64,000 nt of DNA from an uncultured Clostridium sp. (GCA_947650745.1 CANSWM010000001.1:1589-65588), one strand, 5' to 3'; counted from the first letter of the stretch, positions 2,389-27,205 are shown. Numbers and translations: made by a program. Notes: generated by a model from the sequence alone, not told the origin.

Positions 2389-2749
2389 CTTTACCTCCTA
2401 ATTCTTGCAAGTAACTTACTGCAGAATCGTAACTTATGCCTATGCTTTTCATACTATTAAGATAATTATTGACTTTTTCTTTTGCTAAATCTTTTTTTAT
2501 CTTTTCAATTAGCTTTTCATCTTCTGTTACATATTTTCCATTTGTTCTTTCTGTAAAAATTAATTTTTCATTTTCTAGTTCTACTAATGCTTTTTGCATT
2601 GTGTTAGGATTAACCTTCATTATAAGTGCTAGCTCTCTTACAGGAGGTAATTTTTCCCCTTTTTTAAACTTACCAGAAACTATATAGGTTCTTATCATTT
2701 CAACTAACTGAATATATATTGGTCTTTCATTATCAAAAATATAGTTCAT
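2375..2749 (-). CDS. GntR (YtrA-subfamily) transcriptional regulator
   Basis: 124-aa ORF with winged-HTH segment LPPVRELALIMKVNPNTMQKAL. It overlaps the downstream ABC ATPase, the usual YtrA-ABC operon layout. Confidence 0.85.
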   Translation of the reverse strand: MNYIFDNERPIYIQLVEMIRTYIVSGKFKKGEKLPPVRELALIMKVNPNTMQKALVELENEKLIFTERTNGKYVTEDEKLIEKIKKDLAKEKVNNYLNSMKSIGISYDSAVSYLQELGGKDGIS

Positions 2750-2907
2750 AAGTATCTCCCTTCATTATTGTATTACTTGCTTAATACAATAATACTATTT
2801 TGTTTTTAATTTGTCAAGAAAAATACTTAAAATTTCTAATTTTTTGTAACTAATCAGAGGTAAAATATAAAGGAAATGATGTAGGCGCAACTAGTGGTAT
2901 ACTTCAA

Positions 2908-3996
2908 TTATTTAAGTGATGAGCTATTATTAATTAGCATTACACTATATTCAAATAAAATGTCTTTATCTGTAAATTCTATGTATTTACTTAATATTTT
3001 AGGTGATATATATCTTGTGTCAATTACTGTTATTTTACTATATTCTTCTACTAACAATGGAACTAGGCTGCTTCCATATGAATCTCTAAAAACAATTAAC
3101 TCTTTATTTGTATTATTATTTGGATTTTCTATTGTTAGCAGCGATACTGCTCCTGATAGATATATATCATATTTGTCTTGTGAATTTATTTTATCTATAT
3201 CATATATTTTAGTTTTATTATTTTTTTCATAATTATATACTACACAACTTTCTATTTCTTCATTTGTTAATATTCGTATTTCATCTTCTCCGGAATCTAA
3301 AGGAAATTGTCCTGAATAAACGCCTTTAAAACTAGTTATTTTCTTTTCTTCATATGTAGTTTTTCTAGTTAAGTGCATTTTGTTTTTTATTTTACTTACT
3401 ACATTTTGTAATTTTTCTTGCTTCCAATGTGAATCTGTGGAATAGTAGCTAGATAGCTCCAACTCATCAAATATATCAATATATTCTGCCCATTCCAAAT
3501 TATTCTTCATTATTTTTTTCATTTTTTCATAATCTAATTTTAAATTATTTTCATTTATAAAATAATTTTTATCTGGAACAATTGTATAATAAATTTTATT
3601 ATTTTTTTTTAAATATAATTTGTTTATTTCATTCATTTTATTGGTTATATTTATAACTGATTTTTCGTTTAATGGATAGATTTGTTCTATCAATTTTTCA
3701 TTATATTTATATATATTATTACTATCTTGTTTTTTTAATATATTTATTTCTATATTTGTTTTTAATTTTCTAAATTCTTCTCTTTGAATAAATTGATCCA
3801 TAGTGTATGTATCAAATTTTTCAAAAAAACTCCCATTAAATAGCTCACTAATTGAAAAATGTGGAAATTCCTGCAATTTTCTTCTTTCTGCTGATGATAT
3901 TGTTTTATCTTTTTTTATTATATTTATAACAAGCATTATAATAATGAGGCATAAAAAGCATGTTGTTACTACTATATTTTTTAGTTTATCATTCAT
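2908..3996 (-). CDS. DHHW-family protein (accessory to MBOAT O-acyltransferase)
   Basis: N-terminal TM helix and YYSTDSHW motif. It lies immediately downstream of an MBOAT gene. Confidence 0.75.
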   Translation of the reverse strand: MNDKLKNIVVTTCFLCLIIIMLVINIIKKDKTISSAERRKLQEFPHFSISELFNGSFFEKFDTYTMDQFIQREEFRKLKTNIEINILKKQDSNNIYKYNEKLIEQIYPLNEKSVINITNKMNEINKLYLKKNNKIYYTIVPDKNYFINENNLKLDYEKMKKIMKNNLEWAEYIDIFDELELSSYYSTDSHWKQEKLQNVVSKIKNKMHLTRKTTYEEKKITSFKGVYSGQFPLDSGEDEIRILTNEEIESCVVYNYEKNNKTKIYDIDKINSQDKYDIYLSGAVSLLTIENPNNNTNKELIVFRDSYGSSLVPLLVEEYSKITVIDTRYISPKILSKYIEFTDKDILFEYSVMLINNSSSLK

Positions 3997-21265: not shown

Positions 21266-21333
21266 AATTGTAAGTTGTCAAGATGATTATAACATAAAGG
21301 ACAGATTCACATCTGTCTTATTTATAATTTTTA

Positions 21334-22962: not shown

Positions 22963-23001
22963 ATTGTAAGTTATCGCTTAGATGTTATTTAATTTTTTTG
23001 T
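22963..23001. repeat. repeat copy A at the stop of the RhuM-like gene (direct to 19156-19195, inverted to 25643-25664)
   Basis: attgtaagttatcgcttagatgttatttaatttttttgt. The sub-core gtaagttatcgct (22966-22978) is the reverse complement of agcgataacttac (25648-25660). Confidence 0.55.
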
Positions 23002-23991
23002 TTCTGTTACTAATTCATCAAAGTCTGAAATATAGTTTTTATCTTGTATAACTCTATACTTTTTATATTCATCTAAAGCTAACTTATCTGCTATTTCTCT
23101 TTTTATTTTTCCATTATCTTTTAAAATGTTATATTCGTTGATTTTTAAGAATACTTCTAACTTTTCTTTCCACTCTTGCATGGAAATAATCTTGCCTAAT
23201 TTTACTTGTCTTTCTGCATGGTCAAGATACATTGATACTAGATTATTTAATTCTGTAATTTCTTCTTGTGAAAGATAGTTTTTAGCTATTATTACATCTG
23301 TTTCAAGTATTTTTCCATCTGGTGCATTTTTCCAAGTTGTTAATCCCATGTTTTCCTTCTTACTATCAACTCTATTATAAATTATTTCAGGAGCTGTCAT
23401 TCCAGTAATTGCAAAGTGTAACTTGTTCTGAACATTCTTATAAAATTCTTGTGTTGTTTCACTATTTTTATCATAGTCAAAACTACATTCTTTGTATATA
23501 TCAGTGATTTTTTGATAAAATCTTCTTTCACTTGCTCTAATTTCTTTTATCTTAACTAATAATTCATCAAAGTAATCTTTTCCAAATTTCGGTCCATTCT
23601 TTAGCATTTCGCTATTAATAACAAATCCTTTTTTTATATATTCTTTTAAAGTTTTTGTTGCCCAAATTCTAAAATCTGTCGCTTCTTTTGAATTTACTCT
23701 ATAACCAACTGCTATAATTGCATCTAAACTGTAAAAATTTGTATTATATTTTTTTCCGTCCGAAGCAGTTACTCTAATTTTTTGAGTAACTGAATCTTGT
23801 TCTAATTCTTCTGTTTTAAATATATTTTGTAAATGATATGTTATATTATTTTCTGCTACGTTGAATAATTTCGACATTGACTTTTGCGTTAGCCAAAAAT
23901 CTTCTTCATTATATAAAACTTCAACAGATATATTTTCATTATTTCGACTTTGATATATGATTAAATCTTTTAAATTTTCTATATTATTCAA
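22978..23991 (-). CDS. RhuM-family protein
   Basis: 337 aa. WLTQKSMSKLF...YNTNFYSLDAIIAVGYRVNSKEATDFRIWATKTLKEYIKKGF is typical of RhuM-like proteins. Confidence 0.8.
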   Translation of the reverse strand: MNNIENLKDLIIYQSRNNENISVEVLYNEEDFWLTQKSMSKLFNVAENNITYHLQNIFKTEELEQDSVTQKIRVTASDGKKYNTNFYSLDAIIAVGYRVNSKEATDFRIWATKTLKEYIKKGFVINSEMLKNGPKFGKDYFDELLVKIKEIRASERRFYQKITDIYKECSFDYDKNSETTQEFYKNVQNKLHFAITGMTAPEIIYNRVDSKKENMGLTTWKNAPDGKILETDVIIAKNYLSQEEITELNNLVSMYLDHAERQVKLGKIISMQEWKEKLEVFLKINEYNILKDNGKIKREIADKLALDEYKKYRVIQDKNYISDFDELVTETKKLNNI

Positions 23992-24076: not shown

Positions 24077-25606
24077 TTATGTTACATATTTTCTGTGTGA
24101 ATTTTTTACATTATTTTGGCTAACCATAGCATATTCCATTGTAGTATCTATTTTTATATGTCCTAATAACTTTTGTACTTGTTCAACTGGCATACCTTTA
24201 TCAATAGCCATAGTTGCCATTGTTCTTCTGAATTTGTGTGGATGTACTTTATTTATACTTGCTTCTTTTCCTAAATTTCTTATAGCGATTTCAATTCCTG
24301 ATATTCCTAATCTATTATAAGGTCTTATAAGTGATACAAATAGAGCTTCGTTCTTATCTGTTCTTGTTTCCAAATATTTCTTAATATACATTTTACTTTT
24401 TGCACTAAAGTAAACTTCTCTTTCACTATTACCTTTACCCAAAACAATGCAACTTCTTTCTTGAAAATTCATGTCTGTTATGTTTAACCTAGTAAGTTCT
24501 CCCACTCTCATACCAGTTGATATTAATAACTCTAATATTGCTAAATCTCTTACATTTGAACAAGTATCTCTTAACTTTTCTAAGTTCTCATCTGTAAATG
24601 TTTCTTTGACCTTTTTTGTTTCCTTTACTTTATGAATCCTTCTAACTGGACTTTTTACAATATAATCTTCATTTTCTAACCAAGCAAAAAAACTTGATAA
24701 TGTCCTTCTTATATTGTCTATTGTTACCATTCCTGCATTTGAATTGTTTTTATAATTAGCCAAGTAATTTCTTAATATTTCAGTAGTAATTTCACTTATT
24801 GAAAGATTTACAGTATCTAACATTTTAGTTATATTATCTTTATAGTAATTTAAAGTTCTAGTTGAACACCCTTCAATCTCTTTAGATGATATGAATTTAT
24901 TTAATATATCTGTATTATTCATTTGTATTTCTTGATTTTTAGATTGTTCTGTTATTTCAACTTGATAATTTAAGCACATTTCTGTAAGTATCTCTTCTAA
25001 TGTAATTTTTCTTATTTTCTTTCTTATATTGCTTATATGAACTTTTAAAGAACTTTCATCACAATTTTCTGCATCTGTAGTAATTAAATCTAGTAATCTA
25101 TTTTTTGTAACTACCTTATTAGGATTTAATAGCAGTTCTCTCATTATTGTATATTCTGTTCTTGTTAATGTGATTTGATGGCTTTGAATTTTCATAGTCT
25201 TGTTATCTTCTAATAGTTCTATATCCTTATATTTTAAATTTTTATCTTGCTCATGACTCATTCTTAATTGTACTTGTATTCTAGCAAGAAGCTCAATTTT
25301 TTCAAAAAGTTTTGTAATATAGTCATTCGCACCATCAAGCAATACTTTTGCCTTATCTGTAGAAGATGTTTTAGCACTAATAACTATTATTGGTATAGTT
25401 TTATTTACTTTTTTTACTATATCTTCTCCATTTATTCCAGGTAGCATTAAGTCCAAAAGTATTAAATCTATATTATTATTTTTTATTATTGTTAGTGCCT
25501 CTGTTCCAGAATAAGCACTTTTTACAATATAATGTTCTTTTTCAAGAAGTTCTTTAATCAATTTATGAATATCGTTATCATCTTCTACCACTAATATTTT
25601 TTTCAT
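24077..25606 (-). CDS. fusion protein: OmpR-type response regulator (REC + winged helix) joined to a complete tyrosine recombinase/integrase
   Basis: Residues about 1-115 form REC (VVEDD, LILLDLMLPG, ISAKTS, DYITKLF). About 125-205 form an OmpR-type wHTH (TLTRTEYTIMRELL...VHISNIRKKI). About 235-509 form a recombinase (MRVGEL, GKGNSEREV, HPHKFRRT, LLGH, MEYA). The frame is continuous. Confidence 0.8.
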   Translation of the reverse strand: MKKILVVEDDNDIHKLIKELLEKEHYIVKSAYSGTEALTIIKNNNIDLILLDLMLPGINGEDIVKKVNKTIPIIVISAKTSSTDKAKVLLDGANDYITKLFEKIELLARIQVQLRMSHEQDKNLKYKDIELLEDNKTMKIQSHQITLTRTEYTIMRELLLNPNKVVTKNRLLDLITTDAENCDESSLKVHISNIRKKIRKITLEEILTEMCLNYQVEITEQSKNQEIQMNNTDILNKFISSKEIEGCSTRTLNYYKDNITKMLDTVNLSISEITTEILRNYLANYKNNSNAGMVTIDNIRRTLSSFFAWLENEDYIVKSPVRRIHKVKETKKVKETFTDENLEKLRDTCSNVRDLAILELLISTGMRVGELTRLNITDMNFQERSCIVLGKGNSEREVYFSAKSKMYIKKYLETRTDKNEALFVSLIRPYNRLGISGIEIAIRNLGKEASINKVHPHKFRRTMATMAIDKGMPVEQVQKLLGHIKIDTTMEYAMVSQNNVKNSHRKYVT

Positions 25607-25642
25607 TCATATCTCCTAAATTGTTTATTTTTATCATATATA

Positions 25643-25664
25643 ATCTCAGCGATAACTTACTATT
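25643..25664. repeat. inverted partner of repeat copy A
   Basis: atctcagcgataacttactatt compares with the reverse complement of 22957-22984, catctaagcgataacttacaattcgtag. There is a 13-nt perfect core plus flanking matches. It lies between the glycosyltransferase stop and the recombinase-fusion start. Confidence 0.4.
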
Positions 25665-27205
25665 TGCTTATTCTCTTAATTTTTTGCTGCCACATATTTT
25701 TTATTTTATTACATATTTTAAATTTATTAATAGCAACGCCTGCAACAGGTATTAACACTACTATATATGGAACTATATACCTTGACTTTGCTTCCCACAA
25801 AATGTGAAATGCAAATCCTCCTATAAAAATTGTAATTAAAAATATAATATCTAAAGAAATATTTTTTCTATTTTGTATTAGTACAATTAACGTGCATAAG
25901 CATATTAAAATTAGTGAAACTTTTTGGTAAAATGTAAGTGCTTCACTTATGTTTTCTAATTCATAATATCCAACTACTGTATTAACATTTATGCCAGAAT
26001 ATGTATTTTCAGCCCACATTGAGGTTATTTTCATAGTATAAAAATTAAATGCGTAACCTAAATTCTCTGAAAAATATTTTAATCTTGCTTTAATTTCTTC
26101 TGGATATTTTTTTGTTGATTCTTCTATGTTTTTTAAGGCAAATTCTCCTCTTTCTTCACTATACCAGCCATTCCCTCGTCTACTCTCTTCCATTGCCATG
26201 AGAATATAACTTGAATTTGGATAAGCTTTATCTTTATCTAAATCATATTTATTTAAATAGTATCCTTTTAAAATCGTAGATGGAGTAGTTGCAATAATTA
26301 CATACATAATAATTATTAAGCTACCATATAAATTCTGTTTATATCCTCTTTTTGTGATTCCTTTAAATAAATGCATAGCTAGGTACATAACTGTTGCAAT
26401 TACAAATATTAAACTATTCATTCTAAACATATAAGCAAACATTGCAAATATAGAAGCATATATTGCATATTTTATTTTCTTTAAATCTGTATATTTCATC
26501 ATAAAATATGTTGCTGCTAAACTAAGGGCTAGTCCTGGAATATCTCCATAAACAAAAGTAGAAAGCATTGGTAAGGATATAAATGTAAGAATTAAAAGTA
26601 ATGTTAATACTTTATTTACTTTATACTCTTTTGATAAATGTTTACTAATTTTGTAAACCATAATTATAATTAAAATATCGCTAAGAACATTAAAAATTCT
26701 CAAAAAATCTCTTACAGGGCAATGAACTATCTTAAAAAATATACTAAAAATAAATGCAAGTGGAATTTGTTGATGATATCCTTGCATATAATAAGTAAGT
26801 GGCATTCCTGCATAAAAATTTCTCTCAGTTAAAAATTTTAAATCACCTAAATAAAAACTTTCAGCTAAGTCACAAACAGTTCCAGCATCTCCAACAACAG
26901 GAGGACGAACTACTATAATCCATACTATATTAAATATAATATAAATAGCAAATACTCCTATAAATAAATATTTTCTAAGTTTTCTCTTTCTTTCATCTTC
27001 CACATTTTTAAATAGATATAAGTCAAATTTTTTACTTCCAAAAAATAAAGCTAATCCTGCTATAATAATTCCGAGCTATGTATACAATTCCGTTATAACT
27101 AATCGAAATAGTTTCAGTTCTATCAAGCCTTGCAGTAAATAAAAAGTTTAAAATAACAACAAATAATAGAAATAGAATTCCTATTATATAAATAATTTTC
27201 TTCAT
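25660..27205 (-). CDS. GT39/ArnT-like membrane glycosyltransferase; needs a +1 shift at CGGA 27070-27073
   Basis: Track fragments 27032-27241 and 25660-27003 join as MKKIIYIIG...NGIVYIA-G-IIIAGLALFFGSKKFDLYLFKNVEDERKRK... The protein is polytopic and its size and topology are typical for PMT/ArnT-like enzymes. Confidence 0.65.
27070..27073 (-). other. in-frame CGGA, +1 recoding site
   Basis: ata gct CGG Aat... Skipping the C joins 27032-27241 to 25660-27003 (VYIA-G-IIIAGLALFFGSKK...). Confidence 0.7.

What the first reader, a model, noticed from the sequence alone, without database searches (positions are those of the whole stretch)
24077..25606. Single ORF fusing a complete OmpR-type response regulator to a complete tyrosine recombinase
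The REC domain has an acceptor-Asp context (LILLDLMLPG) and is followed by an OmpR-type winged helix. A roughly 30-aa linker then leads into a XerC/D-like core-binding domain and a catalytic domain carrying R, K, HxxR, H and Y residues.

No cognate kinase is adjacent. A phosphorylation-gated site-specific recombinase would be an unusual regulatory device. Alternatively, the fusion arose from a deletion joining two genes.
Basis: partly seen in the sequence, partly recalled or inferred. Interest (0 to 1): 0.7.

Follow-up and report, generated by a model that had tools for sequence, protein, structure and literature searches.

The report
Deletion-made response regulator–integrase chimera
The single gene that seems to join a signalling protein to a DNA recombinase is the scar of a 2.9-kb deletion that removed four gene segments lying between two separate genes in close relatives, so it is very probably a by-product and not a regulatory device.

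Summary
The 509-aa ORF at 24077-25606 (minus strand) is real. It contains REC, OmpR-type wHTH, SAM-like core-binding and tyrosine-recombinase catalytic domains, but neither partner is complete. The regulator lacks its last 14 residues, which form the wing hairpin. The recombinase lacks its first 24.

Contigs 93-99.6% identical to the window (L009, L104) carry the undeleted arrangement: 21-bp site, RR (219 aa), ABC ATPase, permease, histidine kinase, then integrase (331-aa family). The window matches this with 2,855 bp removed, in frame, at a 9-bp microhomology (ATTAGAAGA, window 24993-25001). The kinase is missing because it lay inside the deletion.

No other instance of the fusion was found among 5.8 billion proteins, the GTDB species representatives, or the JGI metagenomes. 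All 80 related integrase loci examined encode stand-alone integrases, or truncated ones. The REC domain also carries P100L at a Lys-Pro position that is invariant in 120 homologues.

Its alternative, a deletion joining two genes, is.

The surroundings are more interesting than the fusion. The integrase is a conserved Xer-like recombinase of uncultured gut Clostridia. Around it, multi-gene modules are bounded by a 21-bp repeat, TAGTAAGTTRTCGCTGAGRTT, in inverted pairs.

The parts
24077..25606 (-). Chimeric ORF of 509 aa: RR residues 1-205 joined in frame to integrase residues 25-331, with the LEE codons shared by both parents.
   Evidence: ORF list. Pfam and NCBIfam domains. Comparison with stand-alone parents.
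25274..25597 (-). REC (receiver) domain, aa 4-111. Acceptor Asp52 is present.
   Evidence: Pfam Response_reg, 92.5 bits, full profile 1-111/111.
25307..25309 (-). Codon 100, CTT (Leu), where all 120 closest homologues and L009 (CCT) have Pro of the conserved Lys-Pro motif.
   Evidence: Column analysis. L009 sequence. Window sequence.
25001..25177 (-). Truncated OmpR-type winged helix, aa 144-202. The recognition helix is kept and the C-terminal wing hairpin is lost.
   Evidence: Pfam Trans_reg_C, profile 3-61 of 77. The native C-terminus ...RKITLEEYIEAVWGIGFKMKQ* is read from L009.
24993..25001 (-). Deletion joint. The 9-bp microhomology ATTAGAAGA is present once in the RR 3' end (L009 711-719) and once in the integrase 5' end (L009 3566-3574). 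2,855 bp are missing between them.
   Evidence: blastn of L009 against the window. The two segments overlap at window 24988-25010. Sequence reading of L009 and the window.
24662..24907 (-). Integrase core-binding (SAM-like) domain, aa 234-315.
   Evidence: Pfam Phage_int_SAM_4, 48.4 bits.
24116..24598 (-). Tyrosine recombinase catalytic domain, aa 337-497, with R367, K391, H457, R460, H483 and Y492.
   Evidence: Pfam Phage_integrase, 119 bits. Alignment to XerA 4a8e. Invariant columns of the family.
25642..25662 (-). 21-bp 'L-type' repeat TAGTAAGTTATCGCTGAGATT, 35 bp upstream of the ORF start. It is the left boundary of homology with all related contigs. Its TAG is the stop codon of the upstream PMT_2-like gene (25660-27003).
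   Evidence: Motif searches. Homology breakpoints. ORF end.
22964..22984 (+). Inverted 'R-type' copy of the repeat, TTGTAAGTTATCGCTTAGATG. It overlaps the RhuM stop codon and forms the right boundary of the integrase unit.
   Evidence: Motif search, 0 expected by chance. The same arrangement occurs in L015 and L028.
22978..23991 (-). RhuM-family gene immediately downstream of the integrase. It is a frequent partner of this integrase in other genomes.
   Evidence: Pfam Virulence_RhuM, 345 bits. Integrase-RhuM adjacency in L025, L044, L046, L055, L079 and others.

Best explanation
The ORF is a chimera created by one 2,855-bp deletion in a gene row that relatives still carry intact. That row is: 21-bp repeat, OmpR-type response regulator (219 aa), ABC ATPase, ABC permease, histidine kinase, then a Xer-like tyrosine recombinase (331 aa), followed in the window by RhuM.

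The deletion ran from codon 206 of the regulator to codon 24 of the recombinase. The break was resolved at a 9-bp microhomology, ATTAGAAGA. This points to illegitimate recombination (slippage or microhomology-mediated) rather than site-specific recombination. It happened to preserve the reading frame.

What the sequences show directly:
- the parental arrangement;
- the exact joint;
- the loss of the wing, the transporter, the kinase and the recombinase N-terminus.

What I infer:
- The product is a non-adaptive by-product.
- The regulator half is probably dead as a transcription factor, because it has no wing, no kinase, and P100L in the receiver.
- The recombinase half keeps both catalytic-core domains. 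It may retain some activity, now transcribed from the regulator's signals.
For: 1. The closest homologues of the C-terminal 311 aa are all stand-alone integrases of about 331 aa, at about 89-92% identity. They align without gaps from their residue 21 onward.

2. The closest homologues of the N-terminal 198 aa are stand-alone 219-aa regulators, up to 99% identical.

3. Contig L009 matches the window at 99.6% over the regulator (L009 47-723 = window 25665-24988). It matches at 98% over the integrase (L009 3557-3877 = window 25010-24690). Between these, L009 carries the RR 3' end, ABC ATPase, permease, HK and integrase 5' end. L104, at 93% identity, shows the same order.

4. The two matches overlap in the window. 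The shared string ATTAGAAGA occurs at both L009 positions and in the same codon phase, so the product stays in frame.

5. The fusion is unique.
- No full-length hit appears among 5.8 billion proteins.
- The junction 28-mer is absent from GTDB species representatives and JGI metagenomes.
- All 80 genome loci examined encode stand-alone or truncated integrases.

6. There are signs of decay.
- P100L sits at a column that is 100% Pro in 120 homologues.
- A related lineage, L105, has reduced the same integrase copy to a 209-bp remnant after the kinase.
- The window carries more than ten other split genes.
Against: - The frame is preserved, and both recombinase domains and all catalytic residues are intact. 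An active chimeric recombinase therefore cannot be excluded.
- No reads are available, so I cannot show that the deletion is fixed in the organism rather than present in a sub-population or produced during library preparation.
- A single Pro-to-Leu change is thin evidence for relaxed selection.
Confidence: 0.9

Rival explanations
1. An evolved signalling device. Phosphorylation of the REC domain gates a fused site-specific recombinase.
For: - The frame is intact, the acceptor Asp is present, and the recombinase core domains and catalytic residues are complete.
- An RBS lies upstream of the start.
Against: - It is a singleton architecture.
- Near-identical relatives have two genes separated by 2.9 kb.
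- The joint cuts through the wHTH and through a conserved N-terminal helix of the integrase.
- The partner kinase was lost in the same event.
- P100L sits at the invariant Lys-Pro of the receiver.
Confidence: 0.03
2. An assembly or library artefact. A chimeric read or a mis-join produced the joint, and the organism actually carries the undeleted row.
For: - The window contains many split genes, which could indicate an error-prone assembly.
- The joint was found nowhere else.
Against: - A 9-bp overlap is far too short for assemblers to collapse.
- Frameshift-type errors do not remove 2.9 kb.
- Both flanks are collinear and in the same orientation as the parental row.
- An independent deletion at the same HK-integrase boundary exists in L105, so such events occur naturally in this locus.
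Confidence: 0.05
3. The deletion was made by the integrase itself, through site-specific recombination between secondary sites.
For: - The locus is rich in 21-bp repeats that mark module boundaries.
- The integrase is adjacent.
Against: The crossover string ATTAGAAGA and its flanks bear no resemblance to the repeat T[AT]GTAA[GT]TT[AG]TCGC. No copy of the repeat lies at either breakpoint.
Confidence: 0.02

Closest known systems
OmpR/PhoB-family response regulators encoded with an ABC transporter and a histidine kinase (RR-ABC-permease-HK modules of Firmicutes)
   Same: - The N-terminal 205 aa are 99% identical to a 219-aa stand-alone regulator.
- In relatives, that regulator heads an RR / ABC ATPase / ABC2-type permease / HisKA-HATPase row.
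   Different: - The window copy lacks the wing hairpin (last 14 aa), the transporter and the kinase.
- It has Leu in place of the invariant Pro after the conserved Lys.
Xer-like 'simple' tyrosine recombinases: XerA of archaea (PDB 4a8e, 5hxy) and XerD (1a0p)
   Same: - The SAM-like core-binding domain and the catalytic domain carry R-K-H-R-H-Y.
- The protein exceeds the NCBIfam XerA cut-off, 236 bits against 220.
   Different: - It carries a roughly 50-aa N-terminal helical extension that XerA and XerD lack.
- It is not at a dif-type site.
- In the window its first 24 aa are replaced by the regulator.
Recombinases of phase-variable type I R-M hsdS invertons, annotated 'xerA' on Lactobacillales plasmids (compare PMC7672463, PMC7096588)
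   Same: - These are the closest annotated relatives, at 56-60% identity over about 95-99% of the integrase part.
- They sit between hsdS genes that are partly in opposite orientation.
- Like them, the Clostridial integrase is surrounded by short inverted repeats.
   Different: - No hsdS, hsdM or hsdR homologue occurs in the window or in any of the 101 integrase loci.
- The repeats bound whole multi-gene modules, not half-genes.
Integron cassette arrays and Acinetobacter pdif modules
   Same: - Modules of unrelated genes lie next to a conserved tyrosine recombinase.
- They are bounded by a short conserved repeat. In places that repeat forms imperfect palindromes of about 53 or 95 bp at module junctions.
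- Inverted site pairs flank modules, as in pdif modules. That comparison rests on my recall of the pdif literature.
   Different: - The integrase is co-oriented with the modules.
- The repeat does not fit GTTRRRY/RYYYAAC, and no IntI-specific features were shown.
- Most junctions carry only one half-site.
- Mobility was inferred from comparisons and not observed.

Membership tests
OmpR/PhoB-family response regulator | Receiver domain with acidic pocket and phospho-acceptor Asp. | tested here: met
   Pfam Response_reg covers the full profile 1-111/111 at 92.5 bits. D9, D10 and D52 are present.
OmpR/PhoB-family response regulator | Conserved Lys followed by cis-Pro at the end of beta-5. | tested here: not met
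   K99 is followed by L100. The column is 100% Pro in 120 homologues, and L009 has CCT.
OmpR/PhoB-family response regulator | Complete winged helix-turn-helix, including the C-terminal beta-hairpin wing. | tested here: not met
   The Trans_reg_C match stops at profile position 61 of 77. The native final 14 aa, YIEAVWGIGFKMKQ, are absent.
OmpR/PhoB-family response regulator | Cognate histidine kinase in the same operon. | tested here: not met
   There is none next to the ORF in the window. It is present in the undeleted relatives L009, L013, L104 and L105.
Tyrosine recombinase (Xer-like) | Catalytic R-K-H-R-H/W-Y residues in a Phage_integrase fold. | tested here: met
   Pfam Phage_integrase at 119 bits. 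R367, K391, H457, R460, H483 and Y492 align with XerA 4a8e and with invariant family columns.
Tyrosine recombinase (Xer-like) | N-terminal SAM-like core-binding domain. | tested here: met
   Phage_int_SAM_4, aa 234-315, 48.4 bits.
The 331-aa Clostridial integrase family itself | Conserved N-terminus M[RK]ELF..FLDNNQRIKLKEIL. | tested here: not met
   The first 24 residues are replaced by regulator sequence.
A natural REC-wHTH-recombinase domain architecture | Recurrence of the same architecture in independent genomes. | tested here: not met
   - No full-length homologue appears among the 120 best of 8,000 hits. All cover 61% of the query.
- The junction 28-mer has 0 matches in GTDB representatives and JGI metagenomes.
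- None of 80 genome loci carries the fusion.
- Distant, unrelated REC-integrase fusions were not searched for.
hsdS-inverton recombinases | Location between inverted hsdS genes of a type I R-M system. | tested here: not met
   tblastn with HsdS, HsdM and HsdR of L102 against the window and 101 integrase loci gave no hits.
Integron integrase (IntI) | IntI-specific additional domain, attI/attC sites with GTTRRRY cores, and intI divergent from the cassettes. | tested here: inconclusive
   - The integrase is co-oriented with neighbouring modules.
- The repeat core TAGTAA|GTTRTCGC does not fit GTTRRRY.
- The IntI-specific insertion was not examined.
- The NCBIfam name 'integron integrase' is generic.

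The most novel reading that the evidence does not exclude
The fusion itself is a scar, but the recombinase half may belong to an undescribed cassette platform of uncultured gut Clostridia.

The platform would consist of a conserved 331-aa Xer-like recombinase, seen in at least 214 species-level genomes at 83-92% identity, and a 21-bp repeat, TAGTAAGTTRTCGCTGAGRTT.
- The repeat lies about 165 bp upstream of the integrase gene.
- In inverted copies it bounds interchangeable multi-gene modules. Examples are the two-component/ABC module, sigma/anti-sigma, radical SAM/TehB and RhuM.
- At some junctions the copies form hairpin-capable composites.

This would work like integron cassettes or pdif modules, but with different sites and a different recombinase clade. 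A less likely addition is that the chimera is still an active recombinase driven by the regulator's expression signals.
Probability: 0.3. Interest if true: 0.6.

Novelty: already known. Interest (0 to 1): 0.15.

Why it matters
As a regulatory invention it does not matter. It is a one-off in-frame deletion product and should not be entered in catalogues of response-regulator output domains.

It is useful in two other ways. First, it is a clean, fully reconstructed example of how striking 'domain fusions' arise by microhomology deletion inside mobile, decaying loci, and of why singleton architectures need a synteny check.

Second, the check exposed a possibly undescribed system. It comprises a highly conserved Xer-like recombinase and a 21-bp boundary repeat that appear to shuffle multi-gene modules in low-GC, uncultured gut Clostridia. 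If confirmed, that would be a cassette-exchange system in a phylum where I recall classical integrons have not been found. I did not check that point in the literature here.

Tried and rejected
1. Split gene hypothesis. I first suspected that a mobile element had split the regulator gene, and looked for the missing wing-coding 3' end elsewhere in the window with a six-frame motif scan. Nothing was found. L009 then showed that the missing piece was deleted, not displaced.

2. Junction search. I searched for the joint in public collections with a 28-mer, and found no match in either GTDB representatives or JGI metagenomes.

3. Other N-terminal fusions. I searched 80 genome loci. There are only short upstream extensions and truncated pseudogenes. 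One unrelated singleton chimera, P0004, appeared in the protein search.

4. Empty-site test. I tried to compare the integrase unit with relatives of the upstream PMT_2-like gene. The relatives found are only 47-61% identical and carry no repeat. They served as a negative control for the motif.

5. Type I R-M association, tested because the closest annotated relatives sit in hsdS invertons. No hsd genes occur in any integrase locus.

6. Rfam and tRNA scans of the region gave nothing.

7. Literature searches for REC-recombinase fusions, integron-like systems in Firmicutes and the repeat sequence gave nothing relevant.

8. The AlphaFold2 model of the stand-alone integrase was poor (mean pLDDT 52.7). 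Only its N-terminal helices were used, with caution.

9. Site-specific origin of the deletion. Rejected because the crossover bears no resemblance to the repeat.

Full report
**Observation**

The window has an uninterrupted 509-aa ORF at 24077..25606 on the minus strand. Pfam finds four domains:
- Response_reg at aa 4-111, covering the full profile;
- Trans_reg_C at aa 144-202;
- Phage_int_SAM_4 at aa 234-315;
- Phage_integrase at aa 337-497.

NCBIfam places the C-terminal part above the cut-off of the XerA-type model. It places the N-terminal part among the OmpR/PhoB regulators, below every equivalog cut-off.

The word 'complete' is not right. The Trans_reg_C match ends at profile position 61 of 77, which means the wing hairpin is absent.

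**Both halves have stand-alone parents**

The whole ORF was searched against 5.8 billion proteins. All 120 listed hits were integrases of about 330 aa (a few up to 392 aa) covering 61% of the query, and no full-length hit appeared. They align without gaps to the C-terminal 311 residues at about 89% identity, starting at integrase residue 21.

The N-terminal 198 residues were searched alone. They find 219-aa stand-alone regulators, the best at 99% identity.

**The undeleted arrangement exists**

The 99% regulator, P0121, lies on contig L009. Its gene order is:
- regulator, 106-765;
- ABC ATPase, 848-1762;
- two permease pieces;
- HisKA/HATPase kinase, 2584-3468;
- the start of an integrase, from 3495.

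blastn shows two matches between L009 and the window:
- L009 47-723 equals window 25665-24988 at 99.6%;
- L009 3557-3877 equals window 25010-24690 at 98%.

The two matches overlap in the window by 23 bp. L104, a separate contig 93% identical to L009, has the same order up to the integrase start.

**The joint**

I read the sequences directly.
- The regulator ends ...AGA AAA ATT ACA TTA GAA GAA TAC ATT GAA..., encoding ...RKITLEEYIEAVWGIGFKMKQ*.
- The integrase begins MKELFIKEVINKTSYFLDDNQRIKLEEILTEMC..., with ...AGA ATA AAA TTA GAA GAG ATA CTT.
- The window reads ...AAA ATT ACA TTA GAA GAG ATA CTT...

The crossover therefore lies inside the shared 9-mer ATTAGAAGA. That string sits at L009 711-719 and 3566-3574, and at window 24993-25001. 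It is in the same codon phase in both genes.

The deletion is 2,855 bp. It removed:
- the last 14 codons of the regulator, which encode the wing;
- the ABC ATPase;
- the permease;
- the kinase;
- the first 24 codons of the integrase.

The 9-mer does not resemble the repeat described below. The event therefore looks like illegitimate, microhomology-mediated deletion and not site-specific recombination. This is an inference.

**The fusion is unique**

- The junction 28-mer has no match in the GTDB species-representative genomes or in the JGI metagenome contigs.
- 214 species representatives encode a relative of the integrase. I examined the 80 best loci. Every integrase ORF there is stand-alone, with the conserved N-terminus M[RK]ELF...FLDNNQRIKLKEIL, or is a truncated pseudogene.

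**Signs of decay**

- The window's receiver domain has Leu100 where all 120 closest homologues, and L009, have the Pro of the Lys-Pro motif.
- In L105, at 88% identity, the integrase copy after the kinase is reduced to a 209-bp remnant. That is an independent deletion at the same boundary.
- The window contains many other split genes.

Together these favour a non-adaptive scar. The recombinase core domains and catalytic residues are nonetheless intact. Residual recombinase activity therefore cannot be excluded.

The AlphaFold2 model of the stand-alone integrase is poor overall, with mean pLDDT 52.7. It does predict N-terminal helices at residues 2-12 and 19-66 with pLDDT of about 77-88. The fusion would remove the first helix and the start of the second. 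This is weak evidence.

**Why the two genes were neighbours**

The regulator and the integrase are part of a mosaic of modules bounded by a 21-bp repeat. In the window there are four copies:
- TAGTAAGTTATCGCTGAGATT at 25642-25662 on the minus strand, 35 bp upstream of the ORF start;
- an inverted copy, TTGTAAGTTATCGCTTAGATG, at 22964-22984, overlapping the RhuM stop;
- further inverted-type copies at 21268-21278 and 19157-19177.

Homology of the window with all related contigs stops at the first repeat. What lies beyond it differs from contig to contig:
- a PMT_2-like gene in the window;
- PurM in L104;
- a flavin reductase in L105;
- another gene in L013.

In about 45 genomes the repeat lies 165-253 bp upstream of the integrase. 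In about 20 others, whole genes sit between the repeat and the integrase. Examples are sigma/anti-sigma in L017 and L031, and the two-component/ABC module in L009.

A 3,515-bp integrase/radical-SAM/TehB module is 99.9% identical in four different contexts. It is bounded by the repeat on the left and a degenerate inverted copy on the right.

The 11-bp core motif is strongly enriched near the integrase:
- 256 occurrences in 1.04 Mb of integrase loci, against about 42 in shuffles;
- 0 occurrences in 0.52 Mb of control loci.

The flanking positions are conserved beyond the searched pattern. Ten junctions have an inverted copy exactly 32 bp before a direct copy, and six more have it 72-74 bp before. 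These composites fold as DNA hairpins with z-scores of -3.5 to -4.4.

I did not observe mobility directly, and I found no description of this system in the searched literature.

**Closest known relatives of the integrase**

- By sequence, the closest solved structures are XerA (4a8e, 5hxy) and XerD.
- The closest annotated relatives, at 56-60% identity, are 'xerA' recombinases inside type I R-M hsdS loci on Lactobacillales plasmids.
- No hsd genes occur in the window or in any of the 101 integrase loci.
- Rfam and tRNA scans were negative.

**Verdict**

The ORF is real, but it is a deletion-generated chimera of two truncated genes.

Interest in the fusion is low. The recombinase-plus-repeat module system around it deserves a separate look.

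Noticed in passing
window 25642-25662(-), 22964-22984(+), 21268-21278(+), 19157-19177(+); loci L001-L101: A 21-bp repeat, consensus TAGTAA[G/T]TT[G/A]TCGCTGAG[A/G]TT, marks module boundaries around a conserved 331-aa Xer-like integrase. It occurs as 'L-type' copies before modules and as inverted 'R-type' copies (TTGTAA...) after them. The core motif occurs 256 times in 1.04 Mb of integrase loci, against about 42 expected and 0 in 0.52 Mb of control loci.
   Followed up: partly
L001 7830-11344; L002, L003, L004, L005-L008 equivalents: A 3,515-bp module (integrase, radical SAM/SPASM protein, TehB-like methyltransferase) is 99.9% identical in at least four different flanking contexts, some next to relaxase/MobC genes. 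It behaves like a discrete mobile unit bounded by the repeat.
   Followed up: partly
L004 4280-4322, L012 355-397, L017 14783-14825, L091 883-925 and others; L027, L038, L040, L057, L063, L071: There are two classes of composite junction. In the first, an inverted copy lies exactly 32 bp before a direct copy, with a third half-site-like copy in the linker. In the second, the spacing is 72-74 bp, and the linker holds a terminator-like hairpin and a TATAAT box. Both classes fold as DNA hairpins (z -3.5 to -4.4).
   Followed up: partly
window 25660-25662; L001 7836-7838; L004 3311-3313; L017 6478-6480: The TAG that opens the L-type repeat (TAGTAA, two stop codons in tandem) serves as the stop codon of the upstream gene in several unrelated contexts: PMT_2-like, QueH-GNAT, radical SAM and QueH. 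In the window, the last roughly 20 residues of the PMT_2-like protein do not align with its relatives. This suggests insertion into gene 3' ends.
   Followed up: no
window 19160-19200 (minus strand): A remnant of a RhuM 3' end (AAGATTAAATAACATCTAAGC) sits next to the R-type repeat at 19157-19177. It duplicates the RhuM end and repeat found at 22964-22990. The joint ACAA|GTTAT, seen here and at L001 11344 and L013 13436, looks like an R end joined directly to the inner part of an L site.
   Followed up: no
L105 12371-12579: In a lineage 88% identical to L009, the integrase that follows the histidine kinase is reduced to a 209-bp internal remnant. This is an independent deletion at the same boundary.
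   Followed up: yes
protein P0004 (392 aa, single contig): This is another singleton N-terminal chimera of the same integrase family. About 70 unrelated residues with no Pfam match replace the first roughly 11 residues of the integrase.
   Followed up: partly
window 31589-33013, 35764-37116, 37134-38469, 40591-43210, 54355-56450, 58709-60432 and others: More than ten genes in the 64-kb window are split into two or three ORFs or are truncated. By my reading of the translations, they include a nicotinate phosphoribosyltransferase, an MFS-like transporter, MgtE, a P-type ATPase, an FtsX permease, and a second OmpR-type regulator with its kinase. This points to either genome decay or an indel-prone assembly. 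The two breaks I looked at are not in obvious homopolymers.
   Followed up: partly
L009 1755-2571; L104, L105, L106 equivalents: The ABC permease of the two-component/ABC module is called as two ORFs (85 aa plus 139-158 aa) in several independent contigs. In L013 it is a single 288-aa gene.
   Followed up: no
L001, L017-L021 (upstream of the integrase): In several genomes the integrase locus lies directly downstream of ruvB-queH. This suggests a conserved chromosomal position for the platform in part of the clade. The window copy is elsewhere, after a PMT_2-like gene.
   Followed up: no
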